Source: Deltaproteobacteria bacterium (lineage in GTDB: Bacteria; Myxococcota; Kuafuiibacteriia; Kuafuiibacteriales; Kuafuiibacteriaceae). Taken from it: a stretch of 14,122 bases of DNA. Of the stretch, positions 1 to 14,122 are shown piece by piece; the stretch's first letter is position 1; the number at the start of each line of letters is the position of its first letter. The position numbers were made by a program, and so were the translations under genes. The stretch lies in contig JAVJQW010000004.1 of assembly GCA_040218735.1 (NCBI GenBank), positions 1 to 14,122 on the forward strand, given 5' to 3'. The notes beneath the pieces are model-generated. The model searched no databases, was not told the DNA's origin, and saw only the letters and a list, made by a program, of their open reading frames with translations.

Positions 1-2
1 CG

Positions 3-1925
3 CTGGGCTTCGCTTCGCTCCTCACAACGCTCCCCGAGGGGACGGACGCGGGCGACCTCTCGGCCTACTTCGTGGCCTCGGTCGAAGTCCCCGCCGAGCT
101 CGCGCGCAGTTTGTCGAACGTCGACGTCACGGCGGAACAGATCCAGCGCCGCTACTTCGAGGTGTTCGGCCGCCGCTCGATCGTCTTTCTCTTCCGCCAG
201 TGGCTCGCGCGCGCCGCCCTGATCTCCACGGTCGCGGCTCTGCTGTTGTGGCTCGCGTTGCGCGCGTACCGCGAAGCGATCTTCGGCGCGCGGCAGCGGC
301 GCGGCGCGATCCTTCGCGACCACGCGGCGCATGAGCGCGAGCGCCGTCGCCGAGGTCGTGCCCTCCATGGACTGGCGAGTGTGGCGCTCGCGGTGCCGCT
401 CGCCTCCGTTGTCTTCGACGCCCCGCCGGCGGAGCTCGCGGTCTACGCGAAGGCCGAGGCGTTCGTCGCAGTTCCCGCGGTGCGGGATCTACTCGCGCCG
501 GAGTGGTCGCCGGACGTGCTCTGGATCGATGGGGCGTTTCGAAGCGGCGAGGCCGCGGTCGTCACGCAGCGTGCGCGGTTCGGTGGACGCTCTGTGCTCC
601 ACCTCGTGGCGGGCTACGTGTTCATCGCGGGGTGGGCCGCGGTCGCGATCGCGCTGGCGCGCCGCCAGTGGCGCGTGCGCTTCGGGGGAGGAGGCGACGG
701 CGGCTACCGCCTCGCCGGGGTCGAGCTCGAGGCCGGCAAGGAGTGCTACCACGTGCTCCTGTGCGGCTCGCCGGGCTCGGGGAAGTCGACCGCCTGCAAG
801 GACCTGCTCGATCAGATCCGTGCGCGCGGCGAGCGAGCGATCGTCTACGACCTCAGCGGCGAGTACCTGCGACTGTACTTCCGACCAGGCCGTGACCGGC
901 TGCTCAGTCCGTCCGACGCGCGGTCCGAGACGTGGTCTCCGTGGGCCGAAGGCGACGACCCGGCGACGTACCTCGCGCTCGCGCGCTCGCTCTTCCCAGG
1001 GGGCGGGCGCGATCCATTCTGGCAGGAAGCCGCCGCCACGCTGTTCGCGGCGGCGCTCGAAAAGCTCGCCGCTGACGGCTCGAACCAGCGCCTCTACTTC
1101 GCGCTCACGCAGGGCAGCATCGAAGACCTCCGCGAGCTCCTCGCGGACACGGACGCCGCGCGCTTTCTCGACCCGAACGGCTCAGCGATGCCGGCCTCGG
1201 TGATCGCCACGGTCGCGAGCGGACTCAAGGGCTGGCGCCAGCTCGTCGACCCCGTAACCCCGTCGTCGGCGTTTTCGATCCGACGCTTCATTCGAGGGGA
1301 GGGCGAGGCCGACGATGCGTGGCTCTTCCTGTCGACGACGGAAGCGGACCGCATCGCGATGAAGCCGCTCCTGTCGCTGTGGGCGGACGTCGCGGCGACC
1401 GCGCTGCTCTCACTGCCCGAGACGCACGCGAGTCGCATCTGGGCGGTCTTTGACGAGGTCGCGAGTCTGCAGCGGCTCCCGGCGTTGCCCGGCCTGCTCG
1501 AGCGCGGACGCAAGCACGGCGCGGCGGTGCTGCTCGGCCTTCAGGCCATCCCGCAGCTGCGCGAAGCGTACGGCCGCGACCTCGCCGCAGCGATCGCGGC
1601 GCAGCCGCAGACGTGGCTCGTGCTTCGCTCCGTCGAGCCGGACACCGCGAAGTGGTTGGAGTCGGCCCTCGGTACGGTCGAGGTCGAGGAGGCGCACACG
1701 TCGTTGTCGATGGGCGTCGATGCGATGCGCGACGGCGTCTCGTTTCAGCAGCACGTGACGCACCGGCCGCTCGTGCTGGCCTCGGAGATCACGACCCTGC
1801 CGGACCTCACCGGCTACCTGAAGCTGCCCGGCGCGCCGGACTTGTGGCGGGTCGCGTACGGCATCCGCGAACGCGAAGACATCGCCGCGCCGTTCGTGCC
1901 GCGCGCACGAAGGAGGCCGACGTGA
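3..1925 (+). CDS. traD: Type IV coupling protein (TraD/TrwB family), 5'-truncated by the window edge
   Basis: The frame is open from position 3 (LGFASLLTT...), so the GTG at 72 is probably not the start. N-terminal TM segments are followed by Walker A GSPGSGKS (765-788), RAIVYDLSGEY, DARSETWSPW, DPFWQEAA, Walker B IWAVFDEVASL, GRKHGAAVLLGLQAIPQLREAYG and LVLASEITTLPDLTGYLKLPG. It lies upstream of a MOBF relaxase. Confidence 0.95.
   Translation: MGFASLLTTLPEGTDAGDLSAYFVASVEVPAELARSLSNVDVTAEQIQRRYFEVFGRRSIVFLFRQWLARAALISTVAALLLWLALRAYREAIFGARQRRGAILRDHAAHERERRRRGRALHGLASVALAVPLASVVFDAPPAELAVYAKAEAFVAVPAVRDLLAPEWSPDVLWIDGAFRSGEAAVVTQRARFGGRSVLHLVAGYVFIAGWAAVAIALARRQWRVRFGGGGDGGYRLAGVELEAGKECYHVLLCGSPGSGKSTACKDLLDQIRARGERAIVYDLSGEYLRLYFRPGRDRLLSPSDARSETWSPWAEGDDPATYLALARSLFPGGGRDPFWQEAAATLFAAALEKLAADGSNQRLYFALTQGSIEDLRELLADTDAARFLDPNGSAMPASVIATVASGLKGWRQLVDPVTPSSAFSIRRFIRGEGEADDAWLFLSTTEADRIAMKPLLSLWADVAATALLSLPETHASRIWAVFDEVASLQRLPALPGLLERGRKHGAAVLLGLQAIPQLREAYGRDLAAAIAAQPQTWLVLRSVEPDTAKWLESALGTVEVEEAHTSLSMGVDAMRDGVSFQQHVTHRPLVLASEITTLPDLTGYLKLPGAPDLWRVAYGIREREDIAAPFVPRARRRPT
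1911..1916 (+). promoter_or_regulatory. Shine-Dalgarno AGGAGG for the methyltransferase
   Basis: AGGAGG lies 5 nt before the GTG at 1922, which overlaps the traD stop (GTGA). Confidence 0.75.
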
Positions 1926-2764: not shown

Positions 2765-5439
2765 TCTCCATCTCGAACCTGAAGAGCGCCGCGCAAGCCA
2801 AGTCGTACTACGAGGAAGGCGACTACTACCGCGACGGCGCCGAGCAGACGCCGAACCGTTGGTGGGGGGAGGGCGCTCGTCGCCTGGGCCTCGAAGGCGA
2901 CTTCGATCAGCAAGCGTTCGCTGATGCGCTCGCTGGCAAGCTCCCCAACGGCGTCGAGATGCCGAGCGGTCACGCGGGTGATCGTCTCCCCGGGATCGAT
3001 GTGACGTTCTCGCCGCCGAAGAGCGTGAGCCTTCAGCTCCTCGTCGCCGGCGACGAACGCATCCGCACTGCGCACGACCAGGCAGTCGAGGCGGGGCTTC
3101 GCTACTTCGAGACGAACTTCGCGCAGGCGCGCCTTACGCGCGACGGCGTCACCGAGTCCGAGCGCACCGCGAACCTCGCCGTCGCGCGTGTGCAGCACGA
3201 GGTCTCGCGCGAGCTCGACCCGCAGCTGCACACGCACTGCGTGATCCTCAACGTGACCCAACGCTCCGACGGGGCGTGGCGCGCCCTCGACAACCGAGGC
3301 CTGTACGACGGCCGCGCGGCAGCGGACGCGATCTATCGCGTGGAGCTGTCGTCGCGCCTACGCGCGCTTGGCTACGACGTCACGCGCACGAACAGCCTCG
3401 GACACTTCGAGATCGCGGGCTATGCGCCCGAGCACGTCGAGCATTTCTCGAAGCGCCGCGCGCAAATCGAAGAGGCGATGCAGCAACGGGGCGAGGCCGG
3501 CGCGCGTGCGGCCGAGCGCGCGAACCTGATGACGCGCGCTTCGAAGAGGAAGATGCACCCCGAGGACCTGCACGCGATGTGGGCGCGTGAGGCGCGTGCG
3601 CTCGAGATGGCGTCCCCACCCATTCGGGAAGTCGCCCCGCGCGATGGCGTGGATGAGCTCGCGAACGCGGAGCGCGCCGTCGAGCACGCGCTACAGCACC
3701 TCACCGAACGCTCGACCGTCATCGCCGAACGCGACCTGAAGAAGCACGCGCTGCAGCTGGGCGTAGGTCGCCTCGACGACTCGGCGAGTGTCTTCGCCGC
3801 GATCGAAGCGATGAAGCAGGACGGACGCCTCCTCGGCGCCACGCCTGCGATCAAGAAGGACGGCGACCTCGATCGCTACTTCACCACGCCGAAGGCGCTC
3901 GCCACCGAGCGCGACCTCGTCGACCTGGTCGAGGGCGGCCGCCAGACCGTCGCACCGATCGTGTCGCCCGAGATTGTCGATGCGCAGACCGCCGCACGCG
4001 GTCTGACGGAAGGGCAGGGCGATGCGGTGAAGCTCGCCCTCACCACACAAGATCGCGTGACCGGCGTGCAGGGCTATGCGGGCACCGGAAAGACCTTCGC
4101 TTTGAAGACCTTCCGCGAGCTCGCGGAAGGTCAGGGCTTCGAAGTCCTCGGCGCGGCCCCCTCCGCGAACGCGGCGCACCTCCTCGAGGAGGACGCCGGC
4201 ATCGAGAGCCGCACGCTCGCGCAGCTCCTCATCGACGTGAACCGCGAGGACCCGACCCCGGACCGCAAGCAGGTCTGGGTCGTCGACGAGGTCTCGATGA
4301 TGGGCAACGACGATGCCCGCCGTCTTCTTCGCGCCGCCGAGCGCCACGGGGCGCGCGTCGTCCTCGTCGGCGACGAGGCGCAGCTGCCGTCCATCGCCGC
4401 GGGCCAGGCCTTCCGGCTCCTGAAGCGGCGGGGGCTGACGCACGCCACGATGCAGGAGGTGCTTCGCCAGGAGGAGGGCGTCCTCCGCGAAGCCGTCTAC
4501 GACACGATCCGTCGCAACGAGGCCGAGTCGCTCGACAAGCTCGCCGGCCGCGTCGTCTCGATCGGCGCGCGGACCGACCGCCTGCAGGCCGTTGCCGATG
4601 CCTTCCTGAACCGACCCGAGGCGCGCGACGACACCATCGTCCTCACCCCTTCGAACAAGGACCGCATCGAGCTCAACGAACGCATCCGCCAGGGCCTGCG
4701 TCGCGACGGCGTCCTCGTCGGCGACGAGCAGCGCGCTGAGGTCTTCGTCTCGCGCGGCTTCACAGACGCACAGACCCGCGAGTCCGCCTACTACGATGTC
4801 GGCGACGTCGTGCGCTTCGGTCGGGACTACAAGCGCCTGTCCGTTCGATCGGGCGACACGCTTCGGGTGGTCTCGACCGACCTCCCGAAGAACGAGGTCC
4901 TCCTCGAAGACGCCGCCGGCGGACGTGTCACATGGCAACCGCATCGTCACGCGAAGGTCGAGGTGTACCGCGCCGAGGAGCGGCGCCTCGCCGTCGGCGA
5001 TCGCATCCGGTGGACGCGCAATGACAAGACGTTCGGTCGGCGCAACGGCGCGCTTGCGACCGTCGTCGCACTCTCGGAGGATGGCCGCGTTGCGGCGGTC
5101 GACGTCGCGTCGAAGAACGGCCCACCCGAACGTCAGATGCTGAACCTCGAAACCCAACGGCACTGGGACCACGCTTGGGCGGTCACCGCCCACGGCGCAC
5201 AAGGGCAGACGCGCGGACGCGCGCTCGTGCACATCGACACCGCCGAGAAGAACCTCGTCGGCTACGAGAACTGGTACGTCGCCATCTCCCGGGCGAAGCG
5301 GGAGCTGGAGGTGTTCACGGACGACGTGGACCGCCTCCCCAACGTCATTCAACGACCGATGCAACAAGAGAGCGCGCTCGAAGGGCGCGCTCGTCACTTC
5401 GCTGGGCGTGAACGTATGCGCCTCCCGGAGGCACCATGA
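2761..5439 (+). CDS. trwC: MOBF conjugative relaxase-helicase (TrwC/TraI family), 892 aa
   Basis: Catalytic tyrosines SYYEEGDYY, GIDVTFSPPKSVS, HUH motif HEVSRELDPQLHTH and FSKRRAQIE. The RecD-like helicase has GYAGTGKT, VVDEVSM, LVGDEAQL, TAHGAQGQT and YVAISRAK. ATGA overlap with dam and AGGAGG upstream. Confidence 0.97.
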   Translation: MISISNLKSAAQAKSYYEEGDYYRDGAEQTPNRWWGEGARRLGLEGDFDQQAFADALAGKLPNGVEMPSGHAGDRLPGIDVTFSPPKSVSLQLLVAGDERIRTAHDQAVEAGLRYFETNFAQARLTRDGVTESERTANLAVARVQHEVSRELDPQLHTHCVILNVTQRSDGAWRALDNRGLYDGRAAADAIYRVELSSRLRALGYDVTRTNSLGHFEIAGYAPEHVEHFSKRRAQIEEAMQQRGEAGARAAERANLMTRASKRKMHPEDLHAMWAREARALEMASPPIREVAPRDGVDELANAERAVEHALQHLTERSTVIAERDLKKHALQLGVGRLDDSASVFAAIEAMKQDGRLLGATPAIKKDGDLDRYFTTPKALATERDLVDLVEGGRQTVAPIVSPEIVDAQTAARGLTEGQGDAVKLALTTQDRVTGVQGYAGTGKTFALKTFRELAEGQGFEVLGAAPSANAAHLLEEDAGIESRTLAQLLIDVNREDPTPDRKQVWVVDEVSMMGNDDARRLLRAAERHGARVVLVGDEAQLPSIAAGQAFRLLKRRGLTHATMQEVLRQEEGVLREAVYDTIRRNEAESLDKLAGRVVSIGARTDRLQAVADAFLNRPEARDDTIVLTPSNKDRIELNERIRQGLRRDGVLVGDEQRAEVFVSRGFTDAQTRESAYYDVGDVVRFGRDYKRLSVRSGDTLRVVSTDLPKNEVLLEDAAGGRVTWQPHRHAKVEVYRAEERRLAVGDRIRWTRNDKTFGRRNGALATVVALSEDGRVAAVDVASKNGPPERQMLNLETQRHWDHAWAVTAHGAQGQTRGRALVHIDTAEKNLVGYENWYVAISRAKRELEVFTDDVDRLPNVIQRPMQQESALEGRARHFAGRERMRLPEAP

Positions 5440-7115
5440 GGCACGCGATGCGTTGGCAGAGCCTCTTCTTCGCGCTCGTCGTCACGACGGCGTGCGAGCC
5501 ACTTCGTTACCCGCTCGACGAGCCAGACGGCGGTGAGCGTGATGCTTCGATTCGTGATGCTAGTGCCGGCGACGCGCGTGCGTCGGACGCCGGCCAGACC
5601 GATGCGGGCACTCGCGACGCGGGCGAACAACGCGATGCCGGAGAGCTGCGTGATGGCGGCGAGGCGCCCGACGCGGGAGCGCGAGACGCTGGTCCCGCTG
5701 TCATGCACACGCTCTCGCTGACCATCGCCGGAGGCGGCGCGGGTCGCGTTGTCTCTTCGCCGCCGGGCATCGACTGCCCCGGGACATGCGACGCCGAGTT
5801 CCCCGAAGGTGTGGAGATCCAGCTGCAGGCGAATCCGACCAGGACGTCTCGCGTCGGCGGTTGGTCTCTACCGTGTAACCGCGCCGAGGTGTGCGCGACG
5901 ATGCTCGGCGCGGATGCTTCGGTAGACGTCTTCTTTCAGGTCAAACCGCGTGTCTTCGTGGGCGACTCTCATTCGTGTGCGCTGAACGAGCTCGGTCGGC
6001 TCCGCTGCTGGGGCGAGAACGGCTCAGGGCAGCTTGGCTACGACAATACGACCGACGTTGGGGACGGCGTTGGGCCCTCCGTCCAAGACGTTGGTGAAGT
6101 CGACACCGGCTTCGGCGAGGTCGTCGTCGACGCTGCGCTCGGTCGCTTCCACACTTGCGCGGTCTACAACGATGGCCGCTTGAGGTGCTGGGGAGCCGGC
6201 TTCCGCGGTGCGCTTGGATACAACGATACGGAGAACGTCGGCGACGACCCGAGTCGTCGCATCACCCTCGCGGGTGATGTTCCGGTCGGTGGCCTTGTTG
6301 TGCAGGTCCAAACACACGGCGACGTGACCTGCGCGCTCCTCAGCACCGGGGCCGTCCGCTGCTGGGGAACGAGTGTCACCGGCGCACACGGTCACGGCTC
6401 GACCCCCGCGATAGGCAACGGCACGGGCCCATCGATCATCACCGCGGGCGACTTGACGCTGTCCGGCTCTGCAGTGGTCATCACGCATCGCTGCGCGCTG
6501 CTCGCGACCGGTGCGATCGAGTGTTGGGACGGCGGCATTGATGGCACCGACCAGACAGTTTTCCGCAGCATCAGCGTCGGCGAGCCCGCCCTCGACCTCG
6601 TCTCCGGCGACACCCACGACTGTGCGCTTCTCTCGGGCGGGCGCGTTCGCTGCTGGGGACGCAACGCATGGGGGCAGCTCGGCTACAACAATACGACGAA
6701 CGTGAACGACGGCATCGGCCCCAGCATCCCTGTCGCTGGAGACGTCCCGGTCGGCGAGTTGGTCTCGCAGATCGCGACCGGGCACAGCCACACATGCGCC
6801 ATCCTTGCCTCCGGCGGTCTTCGGTGCTGGGGCGACGGCGGCGACGGTCGGTTGGGCTACGGCAACACGGACAACGTGGGGGATGGCATGGGGCTCGACG
6901 TCGCGATGGCCGGTGTCGTCGCACTCGGTGCAGCCGCGGCGCACGTCGCCCCATCGACCCTGCCGGGGCGACACACGTGCGCAGTCACGGCGGCCGACGA
7001 GGTCTACTGCTGGGGCAACGGCGGCTCTGGGCGTCTTGGGTACGGTAGCGAGGCAAACGTCGGCGACGGCGCTGGGCTGTCGGTGGCCAGTGCCGGTCCC
7101 GTCTTGTCCCTGTAG
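5436..7115 (+). CDS. Lipoprotein with a DAG-rich linker, a divergent InlB B-repeat-like domain and a seven-repeat RCC1/BLIP-II-like beta-propeller
   Basis: Signal peptide with lipobox VTTA-C, then an xxDAG low-complexity linker and the TLSLTIAGGGAGRVVSSPPGIDCPGTC module. Seven units of H(T/S)CA...G.(L/V)RCWG.(N)..GxLG follow. The start is 5436 (ATGA overlap) or 5448. Confidence 0.88.
   Translation: MRHAMRWQSLFFALVVTTACEPLRYPLDEPDGGERDASIRDASAGDARASDAGQTDAGTRDAGEQRDAGELRDGGEAPDAGARDAGPAVMHTLSLTIAGGGAGRVVSSPPGIDCPGTCDAEFPEGVEIQLQANPTRTSRVGGWSLPCNRAEVCATMLGADASVDVFFQVKPRVFVGDSHSCALNELGRLRCWGENGSGQLGYDNTTDVGDGVGPSVQDVGEVDTGFGEVVVDAALGRFHTCAVYNDGRLRCWGAGFRGALGYNDTENVGDDPSRRITLAGDVPVGGLVVQVQTHGDVTCALLSTGAVRCWGTSVTGAHGHGSTPAIGNGTGPSIITAGDLTLSGSAVVITHRCALLATGAIECWDGGIDGTDQTVFRSISVGEPALDLVSGDTHDCALLSGGRVRCWGRNAWGQLGYNNTTNVNDGIGPSIPVAGDVPVGELVSQIATGHSHTCAILASGGLRCWGDGGDGRLGYGNTDNVGDGMGLDVAMAGVVALGAAAAHVAPSTLPGRHTCAVTAADEVYCWGNGGSGRLGYGSEANVGDGAGLSVASAGPVLSL
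5526..5696 (+). repeat. Degenerate coding tandem repeat (xxDAG/DGG penta- and hexapeptides)
   Basis: Encodes DGGERDASIRDASAGDARASDAGQTDAGTRDAGEQRDAGELRDGGEAPDAGARDAGP. Confidence 0.8.
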
Positions 7116-7120
7116 CTCGT

Positions 7121-7936
7121 TCAGTTGACGGTGAGCGCGCCCAACTGCGTCGCGGAGAACACGAGGCCCCCGTTCGATCCTGCACCGTCGAGGTCGCCAT
7201 ACGAAAACGACGCACCGCCATCGAGCGAGTACCGGAATGTATAGGCGTAGCTCCCGGCGCTCGAGATCGTGAACGTCCCTTGGTACTCGTCGTCGTTGCC
7301 GCCGATCATGTTGAAGACGGCCGTCTGCCAGACCCAGGCGGTGGACGCTGTCGGATCGGTTCCAGCCGGCCCGTACCCAATTTCCGCGATGATGCCCGCT
7401 CCCGGACCGGGGGCCTCGGTCACGCCGGCTTCGTAGATCCGACCGTAGACCTCCGGCGTCGTCTCGCCGGCGTTGATCGTGATGGAGGCGGGGAACTGCA
7501 GGTTGCAGAAGTCGCACTCCTCCGGGGCGTCCGTCTCGTTGGCAACGCCTGGCAGCGCGCCGCCATCACGCGCGGAGCCGGCGTCGCGCGGCGGACCCGC
7601 GTCCCGTGCGGGGCCCGCATCGCGAGGGGGGCCAGCGTCTCTCGGCGCTCCGCCGTCTCGGAAGCCTCCGTCTCGGTCCCGACCCGCGTCCTCTACTCCG
7701 CCATCCCTGGTTCCGCCGTCCGCGCTCAGACCTCCGTCTCGGAAGCCGCCGTCGACGAGCTCTCCGGCGTCTCTAGCGCCTCCATCTCTCGACCGAGGTC
7801 CAGCGTCATACGCCGGGCGCGCGTCCAGTGGAACGAAGGTCGAGTCGTCGTTTTCTCCGCCGTCGCCACTACAACCGACAGCGAGTATCGCGACCCAGAG
7901 GGCGCACGAGATCGAATCCACCGCGGGGCGTCGCAT
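7121..7936 (-). CDS. Lipoprotein with an RDAG-repeat linker and a C-terminal beta-sandwich resembling an amylopullulanase-associated module, about 271 aa
   Basis: ATG 7936 gives MRRPAVDSISCALWVAILAVG-C (lipobox LAVG-C). The C-terminus CNLQFP...VYGRIYEAGVT...AEIGYGP...WVW..A.FN...GNDDEY...G.Y.Y.FRYSLDGG..F.YGDLDG resembles, from memory, a non-catalytic module of amylopullulanase/alpha-amylase proteins. The ORF track extends to 8026. Confidence 0.78.
   Translation of the reverse strand: MRRPAVDSISCALWVAILAVGCSGDGGENDDSTFVPLDARPAYDAGPRSRDGGARDAGELVDGGFRDGGLSADGGTRDGGVEDAGRDRDGGFRDGGAPRDAGPPRDAGPARDAGPPRDAGSARDGGALPGVANETDAPEECDFCNLQFPASITINAGETTPEVYGRIYEAGVTEAPGPGAGIIAEIGYGPAGTDPTASTAWVWQTAVFNMIGGNDDEYQGTFTISSAGSYAYTFRYSLDGGASFSYGDLDGAGSNGGLVFSATQLGALTVN
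7560..7810 (-). repeat. Degenerate 15-18-bp coding tandem repeat (RDAGPP/RDAGPA/RDGG)
   Basis: Encodes ...RDGGARDAGELVDGGFRDGGLSADGGTRDGGVEDAGRDRDGGFRDGGAPRDAGPPRDAGPARDAGPPRDAGSARDGG. Third codon positions differ between units. Confidence 0.82.
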
Positions 7937-8040
7937 GGTGGAGGACGCTACTCGCCGGACCTCGGCACGCCAAGCGGCTTGATGCACGTCGTCGTCCGAG
8001 CCCGATTCGTTGTACGCTAGCGCCACTCGGTTCGAAGGCG

Positions 8041-8490
8041 ATGTCCGCAGCAGTCCCCACGAAGTGTTGCTCGAAGTGCGGCAAGGATCTGCCGCTCACC
8101 GACTTCCATCGTCGCCGGCACCACGTGAAGGCCGGCGTGCGCGCAGCGTGTAAGGGCTGCACCGCGAAGGACACAAAGGAGCGTCGCACGGGGCGGATGC
8201 TCTCCGAGGAGGAGAAGCTCAAGAAGATCGTTCGGCAACGAACCAGTCGGGCGATCCTGCGCGGTGAGCTCGTGCCGCAGCCGTGTCGCGACTGCGGTTC
8301 ACACGACGTGCAGGCGCATCATCCGGACTATGTCGCCCCCGATGCGCATCTCCATGTCATTTGGTTGTGCGTCGACGACCACCATCGCGAACACGGAGCC
8401 AGCGATTGGTGTCGTCAGCTCGACATGTTCCCGGGAGCAGAGCGCGAGACAAAGATCGACCCGCGTGTCGTTCACCGTGTCCCGGCCTGA
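8041..8490 (+). CDS. Phage/MGE-type Zn-finger plus HNH-like protein, 149 aa
   Basis: N-terminal CSKC...CKGC zinc finger and C-terminal PCRDCG...QAHHPDY...VIWLCVDDHHREH (HNH-like beta-beta-alpha-Me pattern). ATG 8041 is preferred over 7828, which would overlap the opposite-strand lipoprotein. Confidence 0.8.
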   Translation: MSAAVPTKCCSKCGKDLPLTDFHRRRHHVKAGVRAACKGCTAKDTKERRTGRMLSEEEKLKKIVRQRTSRAILRGELVPQPCRDCGSHDVQAHHPDYVAPDAHLHVIWLCVDDHHREHGASDWCRQLDMFPGAERETKIDPRVVHRVPA

Positions 8491-8827
8491 AAGCGGCGGG
8501 ACGAGTTCGTTGAGAACTCAATACGACGCGGCTTCGCATTTGATGTTGCGAACGGGCGGCCTCGCGCGAACGCGTTCCAGCTGGGGGCAAGACACTGCGG
8601 CCCTTGGGGCTTCCGCGTGGCGGAGCCGGACTTCGGTGCGCCAGTCTTGTGGAGCGGGTAGTGTTGGGCCATGAGGAGCGAGTGCAAGACTCGCGTGACG
8701 CGAAGTCGAGAAGCGGCGCGTACGCCACCCGTGAGGACTCCGAGCGCTCGTAAGCAGGCTGCCAGGAAACCGTGCGTGCCGGGAGAAAGTTGGTCAGAAA
8801 CGTGAGCGTCACCTCGTAGACTTCTGC

Positions 8828-10369
8828 GTGGGCAGACCTGGCGCGTTCCTTCTGGGATTCTTACTCGTCTCCTCGCCCCGTTTCGCAGCCGCGCAAGAGA
8901 AGACAGGCCTTCCCGAGGTCACCTACCTGCCGTCATCACACCAGCTGGCAGGTAGACCGCCGTACGATACGCCGTTCGTCATCGTCGCGAAGTTCCCAAT
9001 GAATGATACCAAGGAGTTCGGCGCCTCGGTCGTGGAGGCCGACGAGAGGTGTCCAACCAGGGCTCAGTTCTCGGCACTGCCGAATCCGGAGTCCCTCAAG
9101 GATCCGAACCTGCGGGAGTTTCGTGTTGTCGCCGGACTCGACGAGGACGGTAAGATTGTCGGCCTCCGACTACGCAAAGCGTATCGGCTTTGCTTCTACT
9201 ACCAAGCCGATCTCACTCCGGCTCGCGCAAGAGCCTTGTCCGCCGACGCTTTGAAGCGCATCAGCGCGATGATCACGGAGTTCAGCAAGACCTCCACGAA
9301 GAATGTTGAGGCCGCCGCCGCGAAGCTCACCGGCCAACTACATGCCGAAGCGAAGAGGCTCATCAGTGCGCTCGACGTCGACGAGACGCACTTGCAGCCC
9401 TTGAAAACACACTTGACGGCGCTGGCCCTTGCGCGGCTGCGCTTGCACGAGACTACGAGGACCCTCAGGAGCCTCCGCGACGCTGCCACAATCGGGGGTG
9501 GGGACAGCAGCATCGCTGGGCTGGCGTCCAAGCCGCCTGCAGGGCCCGATGGTTCGCGGTTCATGCAGGCCCTCTTCGCGATGAATCCGATGAGCGGCGC
9601 CGAAATCTCGCGAATTCTCATCGGCGAATGGGATTTGCCCGCACCGCCGTCGGAGAGCATCTCGTTCACGCCCCGGAAGCGCGGAACAGACGTCTTGTTC
9701 CTTCCCGGGGTTTTGGAGGAGCTGTCACGTTCCAACGTGTCGACGGCGAACGAAATACGCGGCGCGTTGGCGGGTTTCGGGCCGCCGCTCAAGGCCCTAG
9801 GCAGACAGGAAAAGGCGGTCGACGATGCGAAGTTGGCGGTCTCCAAGCGACTCGTGGAGATGTACTCCAGCAAGGACCCCACTCCACGCATCACGTTGTT
9901 CGAGCCCAATCTCAAGCCGAAAGATCGGGCGGATCGAATCAAGTCCTACGTGACAGCTGACATCGGTCTCGCACTCACCGGTTTCGGTGGCGAAGGCGCG
10001 CACGTCGTTCCGACGGTTGCGCTGAACCTCTACTTCCGTCCGATCGATTCCACGCTGGGCCGTTGGAGCGACCACTACGACGGCCTCGACTTCTTCTCGA
10101 TCGTCCTCGGCGTGACAACGTCGCTGCCGGAGGTCGACGGAACGACACTCAAGGGGCTCGTCTCGGACAACGTGACACCCCTAGTCGGGTTGGGCTGGAT
10201 GCCGTTCCACTTTTCGCGCGTGTCAGCCGGATTCGTTCTCGCGAAGGCGGAAGTCGCCTCCGAGATCTCGAAGGCGACGAAGCCTGCGCCTGGATGGTTC
10301 GTGAGGCTCTCGCTCGATGTCGATGTCGCGAAACTTCTCAGCGATGCAAAGAAGGCGCTCATCAACTGA
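8828..10369 (+). CDS. Exported hypothetical protein, 513 aa, with a helical middle region and C-terminal amphipathic beta-strands (possible outer-membrane barrel)
   Basis: Long ORF with Sec-type signal MGRPGAFLLGFLLVSSPRFAAA-QEK. C-terminal alternating strands include ADIGLALTG, TVALNLYF, SIVLGVT, LVGLGW, RVSAGFVL and GWFVRLSLDV. Confidence 0.75.
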   Translation: MGRPGAFLLGFLLVSSPRFAAAQEKTGLPEVTYLPSSHQLAGRPPYDTPFVIVAKFPMNDTKEFGASVVEADERCPTRAQFSALPNPESLKDPNLREFRVVAGLDEDGKIVGLRLRKAYRLCFYYQADLTPARARALSADALKRISAMITEFSKTSTKNVEAAAAKLTGQLHAEAKRLISALDVDETHLQPLKTHLTALALARLRLHETTRTLRSLRDAATIGGGDSSIAGLASKPPAGPDGSRFMQALFAMNPMSGAEISRILIGEWDLPAPPSESISFTPRKRGTDVLFLPGVLEELSRSNVSTANEIRGALAGFGPPLKALGRQEKAVDDAKLAVSKRLVEMYSSKDPTPRITLFEPNLKPKDRADRIKSYVTADIGLALTGFGGEGAHVVPTVALNLYFRPIDSTLGRWSDHYDGLDFFSIVLGVTTSLPEVDGTTLKGLVSDNVTPLVGLGWMPFHFSRVSAGFVLAKAEVASEISKATKPAPGWFVRLSLDVDVAKLLSDAKKALIN

Positions 10370-10377
10370 GGTCAAAC

Positions 10378-10710
10378 ATGGCAACTCGATTCTCGATCAC
10401 ACCGCGGTTCCCCGCGACATCACCACTACGAAGGCCGTTCGAAGTCGAAATAACGATCGTCCATCCGGAATCCGAGGGCCAACCACACATCTTGTTCACG
10501 GGGGAGGGCGTCCACGTGAAGGTGACCAGCCGGGTGCCCACGTCGCTGCCGGCCGGGGCAGGAAAGGTGCAGCACGAGGAGCGAATCACCATGATCCTCT
10601 TCGACGAACCCGCGCGACCGTTCCCGGTCGGCGAAATCGCATGGATCACTTATCGCGTCTTCTTCAAGACGGCACAGGATCGCGGCATCGATGGCATCCA
10701 GATCGTATGA
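10378..10710 (+). CDS. Hypothetical beta-rich protein, 110 aa
   Basis: ATG 8 nt after the previous stop, with GAGG at 10368-10371. Composition is protein-like (MATRFSITPRFP...). The ORF-track extension back to 10063 overlaps the upstream gene. Confidence 0.6.
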   Translation: MATRFSITPRFPATSPLRRPFEVEITIVHPESEGQPHILFTGEGVHVKVTSRVPTSLPAGAGKVQHEERITMILFDEPARPFPVGEIAWITYRVFFKTAQDRGIDGIQIV

Positions 10711-11389
10711 GCTTCCGGCTATCGTCCTCCTTCTTGTGACGAATGCGTGCCTACCGGATGCATCGCTTCGTCACACGGCGGCCATCAGCGCCCCACTGAT
10801 GGTCGAACCTGGTGAAGTCTTCACGATCTCGATGACGCTAACGCCTGTCGAAGGCATCGAGTGCGACCAGGTCGACACCAAAGTCACGTTCAACGCAACG
10901 GCGGGCAAGTTCATCAACGCCGGCGCAGCGAAGGAGGAGGTCGCACTGGAGTCGTGCTCTGCGACAGCGGCCTTCCAGGCCCCCATGGAGGGCAGAATTG
11001 GTGTCTCGGTCGTCGTCGGGAACGAATCGGCCGCGACGATGGTCACCGTCGCCAGCCCGACCCCTCCGGTGGCCCCGCGTCCGGTTCCCGTGGTTACGCT
11101 CGACGTTGGCAATGGCAGCCTCCGTGCCGACGGCGTGGCGACGCTAGAGGTTATCGTGGGCGGGACGCTGGACGACATGCCGATTCCCGCCGGCACGTCG
11201 ATCGTCGTCGGCACCACGGCAGGAACCTTCGTAACGGCGGTGGGCGGTGTCTCGACGACCACACTGAGCGCTGATCAGAACGGTCGCGCGGTGGCGCGGC
11301 TCGTCGCCACCTCGACGGGCTCAGCGCAGATCGGCGCAGAGATGATGGGTGCTGTTGACTTCGCAACAGTGACGCTTTCCCTGGAATAG
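10691..11389 (+). CDS. Lipoprotein with two Ig-like domains (C-terminal one Big_1/invasin-like), 232 aa
   Basis: Lipobox-like IVLLLVTNA-C and a Pro-rich linker (SPTPPVAPRPVP). The pattern LRADGVATLEV...IPAGTSIVVGTTAGTF...ADQNGRAVARL...G.AQI.A is typical of Big_1 domains. It overlaps the upstream ORF by 20 nt. Confidence 0.75.
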   Translation: MASRSYELPAIVLLLVTNACLPDASLRHTAAISAPLMVEPGEVFTISMTLTPVEGIECDQVDTKVTFNATAGKFINAGAAKEEVALESCSATAAFQAPMEGRIGVSVVVGNESAATMVTVASPTPPVAPRPVPVVTLDVGNGSLRADGVATLEVIVGGTLDDMPIPAGTSIVVGTTAGTFVTAVGGVSTTTLSADQNGRAVARLVATSTGSAQIGAEMMGAVDFATVTLSLE

Positions 11390-11401
11390 GGACGCCGCAG
11401 C

Positions 11402-11419
11402 GTATCCGTTCAACGAACC
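11402..11419 (+). repeat. Putative IS66 right terminal inverted repeat GTATCCGTTCAACGAACC
   Basis: It begins with GTA and resembles the GTA..CGT.C...GAAC ends of IS66 elements. It sits immediately 3' of the tnpC fragment. No partner repeat was seen in the window. Confidence 0.65.
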
Positions 11420-11785: not shown

Positions 11786-11792
11786 ATGCCAG

Positions 11793-12005
11793 GTGAAGTC
11801 GCTGACCAAGGCCGGCAAGTTCTCCACGAAGAAGATGCCGCAGGGACTCTTCTGGGAGTCCTACCAGGACTTCGTCTGCGGTGCGGCGCTACGCGCCGCT
11901 CGAGAGCTGCTCGCCGTACTCCCCATCGAGACCGTCCTGTCCAACGTAACGATCTCGATGCTCAACACTGCGACCGGACAGGACCCCAAGCCTTCGGCGT
12001 TGCTC
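11793..12005 (+). pseudogene. Internal fragment of a conserved protein (resembles the C-terminal region of DUF4236-containing proteins)
   Basis: VKSLTKAGKFSTKKMPQGLFWESYQDFVCGAALRAARELLAVLPIETVLSNVTISMLNTATG is well-formed with strong GC3 bias. It starts at the IS66 junction and loses coherence after about 11990. The family call is from memory. Confidence 0.55.
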
Positions 12006-12034
12006 GGCCCGAGGAACCGAGGCACAACCAGATC

Positions 12035-12691
12035 ATGCGTTTCAAGGAACGCTTGGTTGTCCTGCTGGTTCTCCTCGGATTCTCGGCGGCACTGCTCTAC
12101 AGCGCGAATGCGAGCTTCTCGGAGAGCACGATGGATACGTTGGGTCCGGTCCTGCTCTTCGGAACACTGAGTCTATACGCGCTCGTAGTGCAGCCACGGC
12201 TCGAATCTCGGGCGCTCGCTCGCCGACTGAGACCGGTCCTTACTGTCTTCGAACAGGCGGGGCCGATGCACGAGAAGCGTCACGAGACCGCCTACCGCAA
12301 CGCGCTTCTCGGTCAGGTTCTCGCAGGACTCACCGACACGCAGAAGCCAGAATCGCCGCTTCCAACGGGCACGCGGGTTGATGCTTGGTTCGAACACGAC
12401 GGAGACGACTGGTACGTCACGGTCAAGAAGGGCATCGACAATCAGCGGCGACTCACTCTGCAGGGCGAAGTCGAGGACATCCTGCTGCACGCACCCGATC
12501 GCAAACGGGACATGTGGATTGTGATCGTGCTCGGTCTGGATCCGGGGGCCAATCGGAATCCTGAAACCGCCGCACAGCTGACATCTCTCAGACGCTATGC
12601 AGCGCAGCGATCGAGCCAGGTTCTCGAACTCGAATCTAGTCGAAGGCGGTCGATCGAGGTCGTCGAGATAGCCACGAGTTCGGACCCATAG
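12035..12691 (+). CDS. Two-TM membrane protein with a C-terminal degenerate PD-(D/E)xK-like domain, 218 aa
   Basis: ATG 12035, two hydrophobic helices (LVVLLVLLGFSAALLY; LGPVLLFGTLSLYALVV), then HETAYRNAL...E.PLPTGTRVD...WYVTVKK...LQGEVE...IVIVLG. The CDS is well supported; the fold is an inference. Confidence 0.65.
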   Translation: MRFKERLVVLLVLLGFSAALLYSANASFSESTMDTLGPVLLFGTLSLYALVVQPRLESRALARRLRPVLTVFEQAGPMHEKRHETAYRNALLGQVLAGLTDTQKPESPLPTGTRVDAWFEHDGDDWYVTVKKGIDNQRRLTLQGEVEDILLHAPDRKRDMWIVIVLGLDPGANRNPETAAQLTSLRRYAAQRSSQVLELESSRRRSIEVVEIATSSDP

Positions 12692-12706
12692 TTGAGTCCG
12701 TCGGGT

Positions 12707-13582
12707 TCACCAGCTGTAGACGCCGCCCCGTCGCTGAAACCGCTCGAGGTCGAACGAGACGCTCTTCCACGCTGTCGAGACGCCAACGTCCAGGATCGGC
12801 GCCCCGTAGGAGTGGCCGCCGGCGACGTTATCGAAAAACCGCCCTGCGGGGTCCACCATGGCGTACGAGCCTCGCATCGCGTCGTTGTCCTCGACGACAG
12901 GGCTCAAGTCGCGGTGCCTTCGGACAAAGTCGTTCAGCTGCGCCTTCGTCACGAGGAGCGGCTCCACGGTGCCGTCGTTCTGTCCCTTGACCGGGAGGAC
13001 TTGGAATATCTTCCACCGCTCCGGCTTTGCGCGCTGGATGAGCTCGCGGAAGTCCTCTTCCGCGTTCAAGCGGCTGACGACTGTGTTGATCTTGATCCGA
13101 ATGCCCAGGGCACGCGCTTGCTCGATGATTTCGAGGTATCGCTCATCCGGTATCGCGCGACCCCGGATTGCTCGACCGAGAGCGACGTGTGTCTTCGAAC
13201 TAGGGCTGTCGATGCTGAGCGCGAGCCACCCGAGCGAGCCGGCGAGGCGCTGGAGCGCGTCCCGGTCGAGTCGCGTGCCGTTCGACACGAGCATCGTCGT
13301 ACACCCGCTGCCCGCCGCCTCGTCGATGAGTTCTGCGAGCCACGGGCAGAGCGTCGGCTCCCCTCCCACGAAAGTGATCTTGTCGAACTCGGAGGCGAGT
13401 ACCCGCGTGAGCCGGAGCGCCGCCGCCCGGTCGAGGTGCCCGGCTGGCAAGACGTCGCGCCTGACGTCAGCGAACACGGCAAAACAGCCTCGACACCGCA
13501 TGTTGCAGGGCTGCCAGAGGTGGAAGTTGACAGCCGGCGGGAGTGGCCGGCCATTCCGAGAGGTTGAGCTGTCACTTTGCAA
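12707..13582 (-). CDS. vip: Prokaryotic viperin (pVip; RSAD2-like antiviral radical SAM nucleotide dehydratase), 291 aa
   Basis: Motifs VNFHLWQPCNMRCRGCF (N-aromatic-H-x4-Cx3Cx2C-F), KITFVGGEPTL, MLVSNG, LSIDS, KINTVVSRLN, RWKIFQVLPVKGQND, EDNDAMRGSYAMVDPAGRFFDN and terminal FQRRGGVYSW. TTG start with AAGGAGG at 13587-13593. Confidence 0.95.
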   Translation of the reverse strand: MQSDSSTSRNGRPLPPAVNFHLWQPCNMRCRGCFAVFADVRRDVLPAGHLDRAAALRLTRVLASEFDKITFVGGEPTLCPWLAELIDEAAGSGCTTMLVSNGTRLDRDALQRLAGSLGWLALSIDSPSSKTHVALGRAIRGRAIPDERYLEIIEQARALGIRIKINTVVSRLNAEEDFRELIQRAKPERWKIFQVLPVKGQNDGTVEPLLVTKAQLNDFVRRHRDLSPVVEDNDAMRGSYAMVDPAGRFFDNVAGGHSYGAPILDVGVSTAWKSVSFDLERFQRRGGVYSW

Positions 13583-13586
13583 GGGT

Positions 13587-13593
13587 CCTCCTT
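13587..13593 (-). promoter_or_regulatory. Shine-Dalgarno AAGGAGG for viperin
   Basis: Plus-strand CCTCCTT, 4 nt upstream of the TTG start at 13582. Confidence 0.7.
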
Positions 13594-13644
13594 CGAGCAG
13601 CGGGAGAATCTGGGCTGCTCATCGGGGACCACGCGGTCGGCCGT

Positions 13645-14121
13645 TCAGCGTCTCAGGTTTCTTCGAAGTTTTTCGAACGGGTCCGGGGGCCCTTCGCAGA
13701 TCCGTTCGTAGGTCTGGCGCATCCGGGCGGTGACCTCGCGGCACTGGCGGTTGACAGTGCTCCTCGACCCGATGCCCCGCGCCTCCAGCTCGCGCGCGCT
13801 GAATTCGACGCAGAGCAACAGCAGTGAGCGGCTCTTGGGCGCCAAGGCATCGAGGGCCCGCGATACGCATCGTCGGAGCTCTCGGAGCTCCAGCGCTTCG
13901 AGAGGGGACGGCTCGGTATGCCCCAGGCGCACCGCCTCGCGTTTCTCGGCGGCCGCCTGGCGCCGCAGCGCGTCCTTTCCGGCATTCTCGACCGCCCTCC
14001 AGTAGAAACCGCGGACCGCCTCCTCGGACACCGCGGCGCGGCTCCCGAATCCGGCGCAAACGTCGATCGCTTTGTCGACGGCGAGATCTCGTGCGTCGTC
14101 GAACGTAAGCCGCGCTCGGAA
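13645..14121 (-). CDS. ECF-type sigma-70 family factor, 5'-truncated by the window edge
   Basis: The frame is open to the window end. Region-2-like DDARDLAVD...VRGFYWRAVENAGKDALRR is followed by region-4-like LRRCVSRALDALAPKSRSLLLL...SARELEARGIGSRSTVNRQ. The match is divergent. Confidence 0.7.
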   Translation of the reverse strand, partial: FRARLTFDDARDLAVDKAIDVCAGFGSRAAVSEEAVRGFYWRAVENAGKDALRRQAAAEKREAVRLGHTEPSPLEALELRELRRCVSRALDALAPKSRSLLLLCVEFSARELEARGIGSRSTVNRQCREVTARMRQTYERICEGPPDPFEKLRRNLRR

Positions 14122-14122
14122 G

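What the first reader, a model, noticed from the sequence alone, without database searches (positions are those of the whole stretch)
12707..13582. Intact prokaryotic viperin near a MOBF conjugative module
Seen: a complete pVip with all hallmark motifs and a strong RBS, about 7 kb from the relaxase. Known: pVips convert NTPs into 3'-deoxy-3',4'-didehydro (ddh) NTP chain terminators that block phage transcription, and some have an adjacent nucleotide kinase. No kinase is seen in this window. Inference: a mobilisable antiviral cargo in a probable Myxococcota host. The product (ddhCTP, ddhUTP or ddhGTP) cannot be determined from the sequence by eye.
Basis: partly seen in the sequence, partly recalled or inferred. 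Interest (0 to 1): 0.75.

Follow-up and report, generated by a model that had tools for sequence, protein, structure and literature searches.

The report
Plasmid-borne viperin with sigma-factor partner
This is an intact bacterial viperin, an enzyme that makes antiviral nucleotide analogues, carried on a conjugative plasmid-like element of a myxobacterium together with an unusual membrane-anchored sigma-factor gene that accompanies viperins across myxobacteria and may switch them on.

Summary
Window 12707-13582 (minus strand) is a complete 291-aa prokaryotic viperin (pVip): NCBIfam viperin_w_prok 290 bits against a cut-off of 180, end-to-end match to solved viperins, and a model with TM 0.87 to mouse viperin. 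All core residues are kept. The base pocket is the Asn type that a preprint links to promiscuous ddhNTP synthesis.

No kinase lies in the window, and no homologue of the kinase linked to related pVips was found in the genome.

The window is a whole contig. Neighbouring contigs carry replication, partition, pilus, VirB4, SSB and ArdC genes and no tyrosine integrase. The element therefore looks like a self-transmissible plasmid, present in three variants, two of which carry the pVip. The host is Myxococcota. No pVip was found in 19 other genomes searched from the host's own family.

New here: the ORF upstream of the pVip, cut by the contig end, belongs to a family of about 430-aa proteins with a polytopic membrane domain fused to an ECF sigma domain. 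Full-length members of the sister family sit directly upstream of a pVip in 14 of 14 genomes that hold one, out of 401 Myxococcota genomes sampled. I read this as a conserved regulator-effector module. The regulatory role is inferred, not shown.

The pVip itself is ordinary. The partner gene is a testable lead on how pVips are controlled.

The parts
12707..13582 (-). Prokaryotic viperin (pVip), 291 aa, TTG start. Radical-SAM cysteines C26, C30, C33; GGE at 73-75; C-terminal RRGGVYSW; pocket residues N252 and H257.
13583..13644 (-). 62-nt spacer between the stop of the sigma-like gene and the pVip start. AAGGAGGA at 13593-13586, three bases before TTG.
   Evidence: No sigma-70-type promoter and no minus-strand terminator were found in 11300-14122.
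13645..14122 (-). C-terminal 158 aa of 'X', a membrane-anchored ECF-sigma-like protein cut by the contig end. Its N-terminal membrane part lies at the start of contig C31. About 360 nt in between are not in the assembly.
12035..12691 (+). 218-aa ORF convergent with the pVip, with hydrophobic N-terminal helices. There is a weak structural lead to PD-(D/E)XK-type nucleases and no family match. It is present only in this variant, not in C65.
72..1925 (+). TraD/TrwB-type type IV coupling protein.
   Evidence: PF10412, 360 bits
1937..2764 (+). Dam-like D12-class N6-adenine DNA methyltransferase. The exact start was not determined.
   Evidence: PF02086, 209 bits
2761..5439 (+). MOBF (TrwC/TraI-type) relaxase-helicase, 892 aa.
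5436..7115 (+). RCC1-repeat protein with an N-terminal signal or lipoprotein-like region. First gene of the variable cargo stretch.
7121..11389 (.). Cargo ORFs with no family match: 7121-8026(-), 7828-8490(+, Cys/His-rich), 8828-10369(+, 513 aa, signal-peptide-like), 10691-11389(+, 232 aa, lipoprotein-like). GC falls to 0.59-0.66 in this stretch.

Best explanation
Shown. The ORF is a bona fide, intact member of the prokaryotic viperin family. It has the radical-SAM cluster cysteines, the SAM-binding GGE, the residues that align with the nucleotide-binding residues of solved viperins, and the viperin-specific C-terminal extension.

Inferred from the family (Bernheim et al. 2021, recalled; Shomar et al. 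2023 preprint, read). It converts ribonucleoside triphosphates into 3'-deoxy-3',4'-didehydro-NTPs, which end transcripts made by phage RNA polymerases. The position that is Cys314 in mouse viperin is Asn252 here, and Lys319 is His257. This is the pocket that the preprint associates with promiscuous use of CTP, UTP and GTP, so I expect more than one ddhNTP rather than ddhCTP alone.

Shown. The gene is the second gene of a two-gene module. Directly upstream on the same strand, 62 nt away, lies X. X is about 445 aa: roughly five hydrophobic helices, then a charged linker, then an ECF-sigma-like domain. X-type genes accompany pVips in at least 20 distinct Myxococcota loci elsewhere. Full-length members of the sister family were found next to a pVip in every case.

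Inferred. X is a membrane-tethered sigma factor. It is held inactive at the membrane and, on an envelope or infection signal, drives transcription of its own operon including the pVip. That would make this viperin inducible.

Shown as far as the assembly allows. The module is cargo of a conjugative, plasmid-like element with replication initiator, ParA/ParB, pilin, VirB4, TraD, MOBF relaxase, SSB, ArdC and RadC. The element is present in three variants, two of which carry X-pVip. The pVip gene comes from the Myxococcota gene pool, not from the backbone's proteobacterial-like relatives.
For: pVip identity
-, as set out under the observation check.
- Core residues N19, H21, C26, C30, C33, K68, G73, G74, E75, N101, S123, R137, K164, N166, R189, K191, Y240, R248, R285 and G287 are identical in 82 of 82 aligned pVips.
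- Asn at position 252 occurs in 70 of 82, and His at 257 in 66 of 82.
- Pocket roles come from section 5 of the preprint; the register comes from the phmmer alignment to 6q2p.

Selection
- The two copies differ at 11 of 291 residues. dN/dS is 0.16. Both keep the TTG start.

X and its link to pVip
- The 158-aa fragment hits proteins of 414-443 aa at their C-termini, E 2e-20 to 7e-5. These have about five hydrophobic segments in the first 200 aa.
- Profile-profile comparison of this family (A3) with the proteins encoded upstream of pVips (A2): probability 98.9%, E 2.6e-17, 391 columns, nearly full length.
- A2 members reach the ECF superfamily model TIGR02937 above its cut-off: 50.5, 47.0 and 46.7 bits against 42.9. 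The A2 profile hits M. tuberculosis SigE, E 3.6e-10.
- In one sample of 401 Myxococcota genomes, a pVip is present in 19 including this one. Full-length A2-type X is in 14, and in all 14 it lies directly upstream of a pVip on the same strand. So 14 of the 18 other pVip-bearing genomes have it.
- Among the 27 Myxococcota-clade pVip loci from the GTDB set, 13 have X.
- That makes 20 distinct loci plus the two copies in this genome.

Element
- Searches give the backbone genes.
- No tyrosine recombinase lies on any of the 15 element contigs.
- Contig-end overlaps link these contigs to each other and not to large contigs.
- Protein P0242 joins the start of C31 to the start of C65.
- A 1,890-nt contig from a run of another study equals window 12118-14007 with no differences.

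Origin
- The pVip sits in a clade of 23 Myxococcota and 4 Gemmatimonadota rows (SH-aLRT 98).
- No pVip was found in 19 other genomes searched from the host's family.
- The relaxase was found in 1 of 60 relatives, at 47% identity.
Against: - No enzymatic or phage assay exists for this protein or for any close relative that I could see. The best named relatives are only 56-60% identical.
- Pocket class predicts promiscuity only loosely. The preprint itself notes that some Asn-pocket pVips make one product in vivo.
- The window's own X fragment is below the ECF model's cut-off (25.4 against 42.9 bits). It was not found by the A2 C-terminal HMM at E <= 1e-3. Alone against A2 it gave only 14% probability. 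Its membership rests on the family-level comparison.
- The one other A3-type X found with genomic context (genome G001, same genus) is followed by a beta-CASP metallo-beta-lactamase RNase, not a pVip. The subfamily is therefore not tied to pVip alone.
- Many of the 14 genomes belong to two genera, so the association counts are not independent.
- No promoter was identified, and alignment of regions upstream of X gave no rigorous motif.
- The X model is of moderate confidence (pLDDT 73, pTM 0.46). Its Foldseek matches to ECF sigma factors are weak, best E 0.02.
- Circularity of the element is not shown. About 360 nt between the window and C31 are missing, the node beyond C3/C7 is missing, and serine or DDE recombinases were not searched.
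- The three variants could belong to three strains in a mixed sample rather than one cell.
Confidence: 0.72

Rival explanations
1. The pVip is a solitary, constitutively expressed defence gene. The sigma-like gene upstream is merely a neighbour that travels with it and has no role in viperin function.
For: - pVips protect E. coli when expressed alone (family knowledge, recalled).
- 4 of 18 other pVip-bearing Myxococcota genomes lack an A2-type X.
- 14 of 27 clade loci lack it.
- None of the 53 pVip loci outside the clade has X next to the pVip.
- The pVip has its own strong ribosome-binding site and a 62-nt spacer.
Against: - Full-length A2-type X was found only next to pVips: 14 of 14 genomes among 401.
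- Order, strand and spacing are constant. The distance from X's stop to the first aligned pVip codon is 78-212 nt in 26 of 27 loci; the exception has a split X.
- The homology block shared by the two plasmid variants is exactly X plus pVip. It ends 3 nt past the pVip stop.
Confidence: 0.2
2. The element is an integrative conjugative element or a chromosomal island, or the three variants come from different strains in a mixed sample, rather than co-resident plasmids. The pVip would then be chromosomal cargo.
For: - The assembly is fragmented and two graph nodes are missing.
- CheckM-type contamination is 4.65%.
- The runs holding the sequence are metagenomes or mixed cultures.
- Some ICEs carry replication and partition genes (general knowledge).
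- Only tyrosine recombinases were searched.
Against: - Three different replication-initiator/ParA modules sit next to the same TraD.
- No tyrosine integrase is on the 15 element contigs.
- No end overlap joins these contigs to a large contig.
- SSB, ArdC and RadC are typical of plasmid leading regions (general knowledge).
- Summed contig depth in run X1 is about 70-127 over the shared backbone, about 30 over 8479-11304 and 50-77 over the pVip. This fits three, one and two copies, but the tool warns that this depth is not a copy number.
Confidence: 0.25
3. X is not a transcription factor. It is the infection sensor or a co-effector, for example a membrane protein that gates or localises viperin activity, and its sigma-like fold serves to bind polymerase or phage proteins.
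For: - The window's subfamily scores below the ECF cut-off.
- Several cysteines are conserved in the soluble domain (C258 and C304 of P0243 across both families; six in A2). This hints at a metal or redox site.
- An N-terminal membrane domain of this size is unusual for ECF sigma factors. Passages of Casas-Pastor et al. 2021 say N-terminal extensions are rarer and shorter.
Against: - A2 members match the whole ECF model, positions 15-165 of 165, above its cut-off.
- They align with region 2 to region 4 of SigE.
- The best structural neighbours are ECF sigma factors bound to polymerase.
Confidence: 0.12
4. The ORF is a housekeeping radical-SAM enzyme (MoaA-like or another type) wrongly taken for a viperin.
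For: It shares the radical-SAM core with MoaA: TIGR02666 58 bits and Foldseek 1e-10.
Against: - The MoaA model's cut-off is 284 bits.
- The viperin-specific model is passed by 110 bits.
- The viperin C-terminal extension is present and aligned.
- TM is 0.87 to viperin against about 0.6 to MoaA.
Confidence: 0.01

Closest known systems
Prokaryotic viperins (pVips; Bernheim et al. 2021, recalled, paper not held here; NCBIfam NF038283; PADLOC pVip)
   Same: Same family by curated score, full-length alignment, fold and every conserved catalytic or binding position tested. It has no kinase, like most bacterial pVips; the preprint gives 12% with a kinase.
   Different: It is carried on a conjugative plasmid-like element and preceded by a membrane-anchored sigma-like gene. 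It is only 56-60% identical to the nearest named proteins and 65% to the nearest unnamed one.
Chromosomal X-pVip(-kinase) operons of Myxococcota
   Same: Same gene order, strand and spacing of X and pVip. The pVips fall in one clade. X is homologous over its full length.
   Different: - The window's X belongs to a divergent subfamily, about 17-21% identical to A2 members.
- The DNMK-like kinase that follows the pVip in 11 of 27 clade loci is missing here and from the whole genome.
- Where the contig is long, these loci lie on large contigs of 100 kb to over 1 Mb. Here the module sits on a mobile element.
pVip homologues on plasmids in PLSDB
   Same: pVip homologues occur on 14 of 72,556 plasmid records, 3 of them typed conjugative. 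Viperins on ICEs of Firmicutes are mentioned in Botelho 2023 (one passage seen).
   Different: All 14 are at most 45% identical and come from other phyla. None is from Myxococcota.
Vertebrate viperin (RSAD2) with CMPK2, interferon-induced
   Same: Same fold and chemistry. If X controls expression, both would be inducible.
   Different: The CTP-selective Cys/Lys pair is replaced by Asn/His. There is no kinase partner. The control logic would be a dedicated sigma factor, not interferon signalling.
ECF sigma factors with extensions: BldN (ECF121), CorE/SigZ-type (ECF238), ECF263 (Casas-Pastor et al. 2021, passages seen)
   Same: X has an ECF sigma2-sigma4 domain. It has conserved cysteines in and after the domain, and weak hits to SigZ models. 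A sigma domain fused to a regulatory extension instead of a separate anti-sigma factor is a known theme.
   Different: The extension is N-terminal, about 280 aa and polytopic. According to the passages read, N-terminal extensions are rare and short, and the multi-helix membrane extension of ECF263 is C-terminal. I did not test membership of any numbered ECF group.

Membership tests
Prokaryotic viperin (NF038283 / pVip) | Score above the curated family cut-off | tested here: met
   290.2 bits against a cut-off of 180. PADLOC pVip models score 241-315 bits.
Prokaryotic viperin (NF038283 / pVip) | Radical-SAM CxxxCxxC cluster motif and SAM-binding GGE | tested here: met
   C26, C30, C33 and G73-G74-E75 are present, and identical in 82 of 82 aligned pVips.
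Prokaryotic viperin (NF038283 / pVip) | Viperin-specific C-terminal extension and nucleotide-binding residues aligned with solved viperins | tested here: met
   Alignment runs to the last residue (RRGGVYSW against the equivalent end of mouse, Nematostella and Trichoderma enzymes). Positions N19, H21, K68, R137, K164, N166, R189, K191, Y240 and R285 are invariant. Their roles in binding are recalled from the structural papers, not read here.
Prokaryotic viperin (NF038283 / pVip) | Viperin fold | tested here: met
   Model pLDDT 84. TM 0.87 to 6q2p. The 18 best-ranked Foldseek chains are all viperins.
Prokaryotic viperin (NF038283 / pVip) | Makes ddhNTP and protects against phage | not testable with these tools
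   Needs LC-MS and plaque assays.
Conjugative plasmid (MOBF) | Relaxase, coupling protein and mating-pair-formation genes | tested here: met
   - TrwC 274 bits and TrwB-type T4CP 360 bits, in the window.
- TrbC/VirB2 pilin 51 bits on C3, C7 and C30.
- VirB4/TraC-like ATPase on C30.
- A TrbI-like protein is below its cut-off.
- The secretion genes lie on linked contigs, not in the window.
Conjugative plasmid (MOBF) | Autonomous replication and partition genes | tested here: met
   RPA-type initiator at 41 bits on C7; on C30 only 25 bits, under the cut-off. ParA at 144-193 bits on C3, C7 and C30. ParB on C7 is under its cut-off.
Conjugative plasmid (MOBF) | Closed circle separate from the chromosome that contains the pVip | tested here: inconclusive
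   End overlaps and P0242 give a path C47-C31-C44-C51-C30 back to TraD with no link to large contigs. Two nodes are missing and three variants are tangled.
ECF sigma factor (for the upstream gene X) | Sigma region 2 plus region 4 matching the ECF superfamily model above its cut-off | tested here: inconclusive
   - Window fragment: 25.4 bits against 42.9.
- Its subfamily: 17-21 bits.
- Sister family A2: 46.7-50.5 bits, met.
- The two families are homologous over their full length.
ECF sigma factor (for the upstream gene X) | Binds RNA polymerase core and directs promoter-specific transcription | not testable with these tools
   Needs in vitro transcription or genetics.

The most novel reading that the evidence does not exclude
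Myxobacterial viperins are not stand-alone enzymes. They are the output of a dedicated, portable sensor-regulator: a polytopic membrane protein fused to an ECF sigma factor. This protein is released or activated by phage attack on the envelope and then transcribes the viperin. That would be a bacterial counterpart of interferon-induced viperin expression. The same sensor cassette can be coupled to other effectors (a beta-CASP RNase in a genome of the same genus) and is spread between cells by conjugative plasmids.
Probability: 0.3. Interest if true: 0.75.

Novelty: new variant of a known kind. Interest (0 to 1): 0.5.

Why it matters
The pVip itself adds one more member to a well-described defence family, and defence genes on conjugative elements are a known theme.

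What may matter is the partner. How bacterial viperins are controlled is, as far as I know, not established. Making chain-terminating nucleotides all the time should be costly.

A membrane-anchored sigma factor sits upstream of most myxobacterial pVips (14 of 18 other pVip-bearing genomes in one sample). Its full-length members were found next to a pVip in all 14 genomes holding one. This gives a concrete, genetically tractable hypothesis for inducible viperin expression. It is also an unusual architecture for an ECF sigma factor.

The plasmid context shows the module moving as a unit into a family where none of the 19 other genomes searched has a pVip.

Three literature searches found no paper linking viperins to sigma factors or treating myxobacterial viperins. 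The original pVip paper and all supplements were not available, so prior mention cannot be excluded.

Tried and rejected
- tblastn of eleven window proteins against 140 pVip loci (80 genome, 60 metagenome; 1.68 Mb) found none of the neighbours beside a pVip: RCC1-repeat matches in two loci and one weak relaxase-like match (E 7e-4), no X. For X this was a false negative caused by divergence. It was overturned by neighbour clustering and profile comparison.
- The A2 C-terminal HMM did not find the window's X fragment. The single sequence against A2 gave 14% probability.
- Kinase: none in the window. The HMM of the pVip-linked DNMK-like kinase hit nothing in the genome.
- Promoter and terminator scan of 11300-14122: 0 promoter-like sites and 2 plus-strand terminator-like sites, no more than in shuffles.
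- Repeat search of 8000-14122: only short chance-level repeats and no att-like pair.
- Alignment of regions upstream of X in 10 loci: a possible ECF-like pattern in three close relatives, nothing rigorous.
- Close relatives of the pVip in JGI metagenomes: best 57% identity.
- Expression: no RNA holder listed.
- Placement among the numbered, experimentally tested pVips and their products could not be done. The Nature paper is not held, supplements are closed, and no searchable paper pairs Lacinutrix mariniflava, one species among the related loci, with viperin.
The pdb_via library was not available.
- Foldseek of the X model gave no match at E <= 0.001.
- PADLOC found nothing for the X fragment, the 218-aa ORF, or the 513-aa and 232-aa ORFs.
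- I considered and rejected MoaA-like identity and a pseudogene reading: the frame is intact, dN/dS is 0.16 and all core residues are kept.
Full report
**1. What is at the coordinates.**

The window is one whole contig (C47, 14,122 bp) of an 11.6-Mb, 70-contig genome. The ORF 12707-13582 on the minus strand codes for 291 aa. Its start is TTG. No other start codon lies between the preceding stop and the conserved N-terminal motif. AAGGAGGA sits three bases upstream.

The protein passes the curated NCBIfam model for prokaryotic viperins: 290.2 bits against a cut-off of 180. It matches all three PADLOC pVip models at 241-315 bits. The MoaA model scores only 58 bits against a cut-off of 284.

phmmer against PDB sequences aligns residues 10-291 to the end of mouse, Nematostella and Trichoderma viperins, E 1.6e-38 to 4.7e-33. 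An AlphaFold model built on 20 sequences has pLDDT 84.1. It superposes on mouse viperin with CTP at TM 0.87, and the 18 best-ranked chains are all viperins.

In an alignment of 82 pVips (the two copies of this genome and 80 from other genomes), the cluster cysteines, the GGE and the positions that align with nucleotide-binding residues are invariant and present here.

**2. Which product.**

Section 5 of the Shomar et al. 2023 preprint assigns substrate choice to two positions of the beta-8 loop. Cys314/Lys319 (mouse numbering) give CTP selectivity. An Asn at the first position marks a pocket found in most prokaryotic viperins and linked to promiscuous synthesis, including ddhGTP.

In the phmmer alignment to 6q2p these positions are Asn252 and His257. 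Asn occurs in 70 of 82 aligned pVips and His in 66 of 82. I therefore expect more than one ddh-nucleotide. This is an inference from a pocket class, and the preprint notes exceptions.

I could not place the protein among the numbered, tested pVips. The Nature paper is not held and supplements are closed.

**3. Kinase.**

None is in the window. Related pVips often have one: a DNMK-type kinase (Pfam PF21448) follows the pVip in 11 of the 27 loci of its clade. An HMM of that kinase hit 0 of 75,494 ORFs of this genome.

According to the preprint only 12% of bacterial pVips have a kinase nearby, so its absence is ordinary.

**4. A second copy, and selection.**

Contig C65 carries a copy with 11 amino-acid differences. 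dN/dS is 0.16 and the TTG start is kept.

The block shared by C47 and C65 runs from 3 nt past the pVip stop to the contig end. It holds exactly the pVip and the gene upstream of it.

In C65 the same relaxase, at 93% nucleotide identity over its 3' part, is linked to the pVip through a different and shorter cargo stretch. A third variant (C22) has the relaxase and other cargo, including a Schlafen/AlbA_2-domain protein, but no pVip within its 11 kb.

**5. The element.**

The window holds a TraD-type coupling protein, a Dam-like methyltransferase and a MOBF relaxase.

- Its left end overlaps C3 and C7. These carry ParA, a weak ParB, an RPA-type replication initiator and a VirB2-type pilin.
- C30 carries a third initiator/ParA variant, the pilin, a VirB4/TraC-like ATPase and a 95.7% identical start of TraD.
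- Linked contigs hold a weak TrbI-like protein, SSB, ArdC, RadC, RND efflux systems and regulators.
- No tyrosine recombinase lies on these 15 contigs. Their end overlaps join them to each other and not to large contigs.

The window's right end stops inside the gene upstream of the pVip. The N-terminal part of that gene lies at the start of C31. A 322-aa protein from the public collection (P0242) matches the start of C31 with its first 47 residues and the start of C65 with its last 155, both at 100%. So about 360 nt are missing from this assembly, and the pVip is flanked on both sides by element DNA.

The path C47-C31-C44-C51-C30 returns to TraD. I read this as a self-transmissible plasmid of roughly 60-65 kb in three variants. 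Circularity and co-residence in one cell are not shown.

Summed contig depths in one run fit three, two and one copies of backbone, pVip and variant-specific cargo. The tool warns that such depth is not a copy number.

A contig from a run of another study equals window 12118-14007 without a difference. The local arrangement is therefore not an artefact of this assembly.

**6. Host and origin.**

RecA of the chromosome is 84-88% identical to that of Myxococcota MAGs and 77% to Haliangium ochraceum.

In a tree of 82 pVips the two copies sit on a long branch inside a clade of 23 Myxococcota and 4 Gemmatimonadota rows (SH-aLRT 98), next to a Myxococcota MAG (quick search, midpoint root).

In a sample of 401 Myxococcota genomes a pVip occurs in 19 including this one. 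No pVip was found in the 19 other genomes searched from the host's own family. The relaxase occurs in 1 of 60 relatives, at 47% identity. Its best plasmid matches are proteobacterial at 36-39%.

GC falls from about 0.70 in the backbone to 0.59-0.66 in the cargo. The pVip thus looks like cargo picked up from the myxobacterial gene pool by a mobile backbone.

pVip homologues on plasmids are rare but known: 14 of 72,556 PLSDB records, 3 of them typed conjugative, all at most 45% identical.

**7. The partner gene.**

The fragment 13645-14121 (minus strand, 158 aa) gave only weak ECF-sigma hits. I first dismissed it, because tblastn against 140 pVip loci found nothing.

Clustering the neighbours of the 27 clade pVips then showed a recurrent gene directly upstream. 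It codes for 417-460 aa with a C-terminal Sigma70 region 4.

- An HMM of it finds it upstream of the pVip in 13 of 27 clade loci and in one metagenome locus.
- An exhaustive HMMER search with the window's fragment returned nine proteins. The closest is P0242 at 93% identity, and five others of 414-443 aa match at their C-termini.
- These five have about five hydrophobic segments in their first 200 residues, as does the C31-encoded N-terminus.
- Profile-profile comparison of this family (A3) with the pVip-linked family (A2) gives 98.9% probability, E 2.6e-17, over 391 columns and nearly the whole length.
- A2 members pass the ECF superfamily model over positions 15-165 of 165. The A2 profile matches M. 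tuberculosis SigE at 3.6e-10.
- A model of one A3 member is all-helical (pLDDT 73). Its best, though weak, Foldseek neighbours are ECF sigma factors in initiation complexes.

In the 401-genome sample, full-length A2-type X occurs in 14 genomes and in all 14 lies directly upstream of a pVip on the same strand. That is 14 of the 18 other pVip-bearing genomes. Counting both sets there are 20 distinct loci.

Two points count against a strict tie.
- The only other A3-type gene with context (same genus, G001) is followed by a beta-CASP metallo-beta-lactamase RNase.
- Many of the 14 genomes are close kin.

**8. How it most likely works.**

- Shown: an intact pVip, under purifying selection, moving together with X as a unit on a conjugative plasmid-like element.
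- Inferred from the family: the ddhNTP chain-terminator mechanism.
- Inferred from architecture and conserved synteny: X is a membrane-tethered ECF sigma factor that controls the operon and makes the viperin inducible.

Passages of Casas-Pastor et al. 2021 say that N-terminal extensions of ECF sigma factors are rare and short. They also say that cysteine-rich CorE/SigZ-type factors respond to metals or redox state. X has conserved cysteines and weak SigZ-model hits, so a redox or metal input is possible.

No promoter was found.

**9. Novelty and verdict.**

The pVip is a new member of a known family, and its place on a conjugative element fits a known theme. Botelho 2023 mentions viperins on ICEs (one passage seen).

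The conserved membrane-anchored sigma partner is not in PADLOC: the fragment gave no hit. It did not appear in the papers found by three searches. The original pVip paper and all supplements could not be checked.

I rate the whole as a new variant of a known kind, with moderate interest.

Noticed in passing
window 12035-12691 (+): A 218-aa ORF converges on the pVip, with 15 nt between the two stop codons. It has hydrophobic N-terminal helices. ESM Atlas structure neighbours include PD-(D/E)XK, SfsA and Mrr-like nucleases at TM 0.43-0.57, which is a lead only. It might be a second defence gene. It is absent from the C65 variant.
   Followed up: partly
window 1-3261 and contigs C3, C7, C30, C22, C65: Three divergent replication-initiator/ParA modules (C3, C7, C30) and three cargo variants (C47, C22, C65) join a shared TraD-Dam-relaxase segment. 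The contigs break at window positions of about 900 and 3261. This suggests three related plasmids with different maintenance modules in one sample.
   Followed up: partly
L099 (contig C22) 453-1385 (-): In the third variant, the cargo stretch downstream of the relaxase holds a Schlafen/AlbA_2-domain protein (PF04326, 53 bits) instead of X-pVip. The position may be a hotspot for defence-type cargo.
   Followed up: no
L184 (G001 contig C916) 4715-7621: In a genome of the same genus, an X-like gene (membrane domain plus sigma-like domain) is followed at once by a beta-CASP metallo-beta-lactamase RNase with an RMMBL domain. No pVip lies on the 16 kb of this 16.3-kb contig that were examined.
   Followed up: partly
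window 1937-2764 (+): An orphan Dam-like D12 adenine methyltransferase lies between the coupling protein and the relaxase. No restriction partner was seen in the window. It may protect the incoming plasmid.
   Followed up: no
window 5436-11389 and L100 (C65) 3608-6181: RCC1-repeat proteins follow the relaxase in all three variants (559, 568 and 857 aa; the last with InlB B-repeat-like domains). Secreted or lipoprotein-like ORFs with no family match come next. Their function is unknown.
   Followed up: no
window 11400-11983: Short stretches 84-93% identical to contig C63 and to the start of the large contig C61 (1149-1343). This may be a repeat or a mobile-element remnant at the edge of the segment specific to this variant.
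   Followed up: no
L096 (C68) 2425-6900 and L098 (C31) 6930-13113: The element carries two RND efflux systems with CusB/HlyD-type adaptors, and an outer-membrane factor in C31. This resembles heavy-metal efflux cargo.
   Followed up: no
L175/L179 (G299 contig C33): In one Myxococcota genome the X gene upstream of the pVip is split into two reading frames, covering profile positions 9-261 and 310-445. It may be a broken copy.
   Followed up: no
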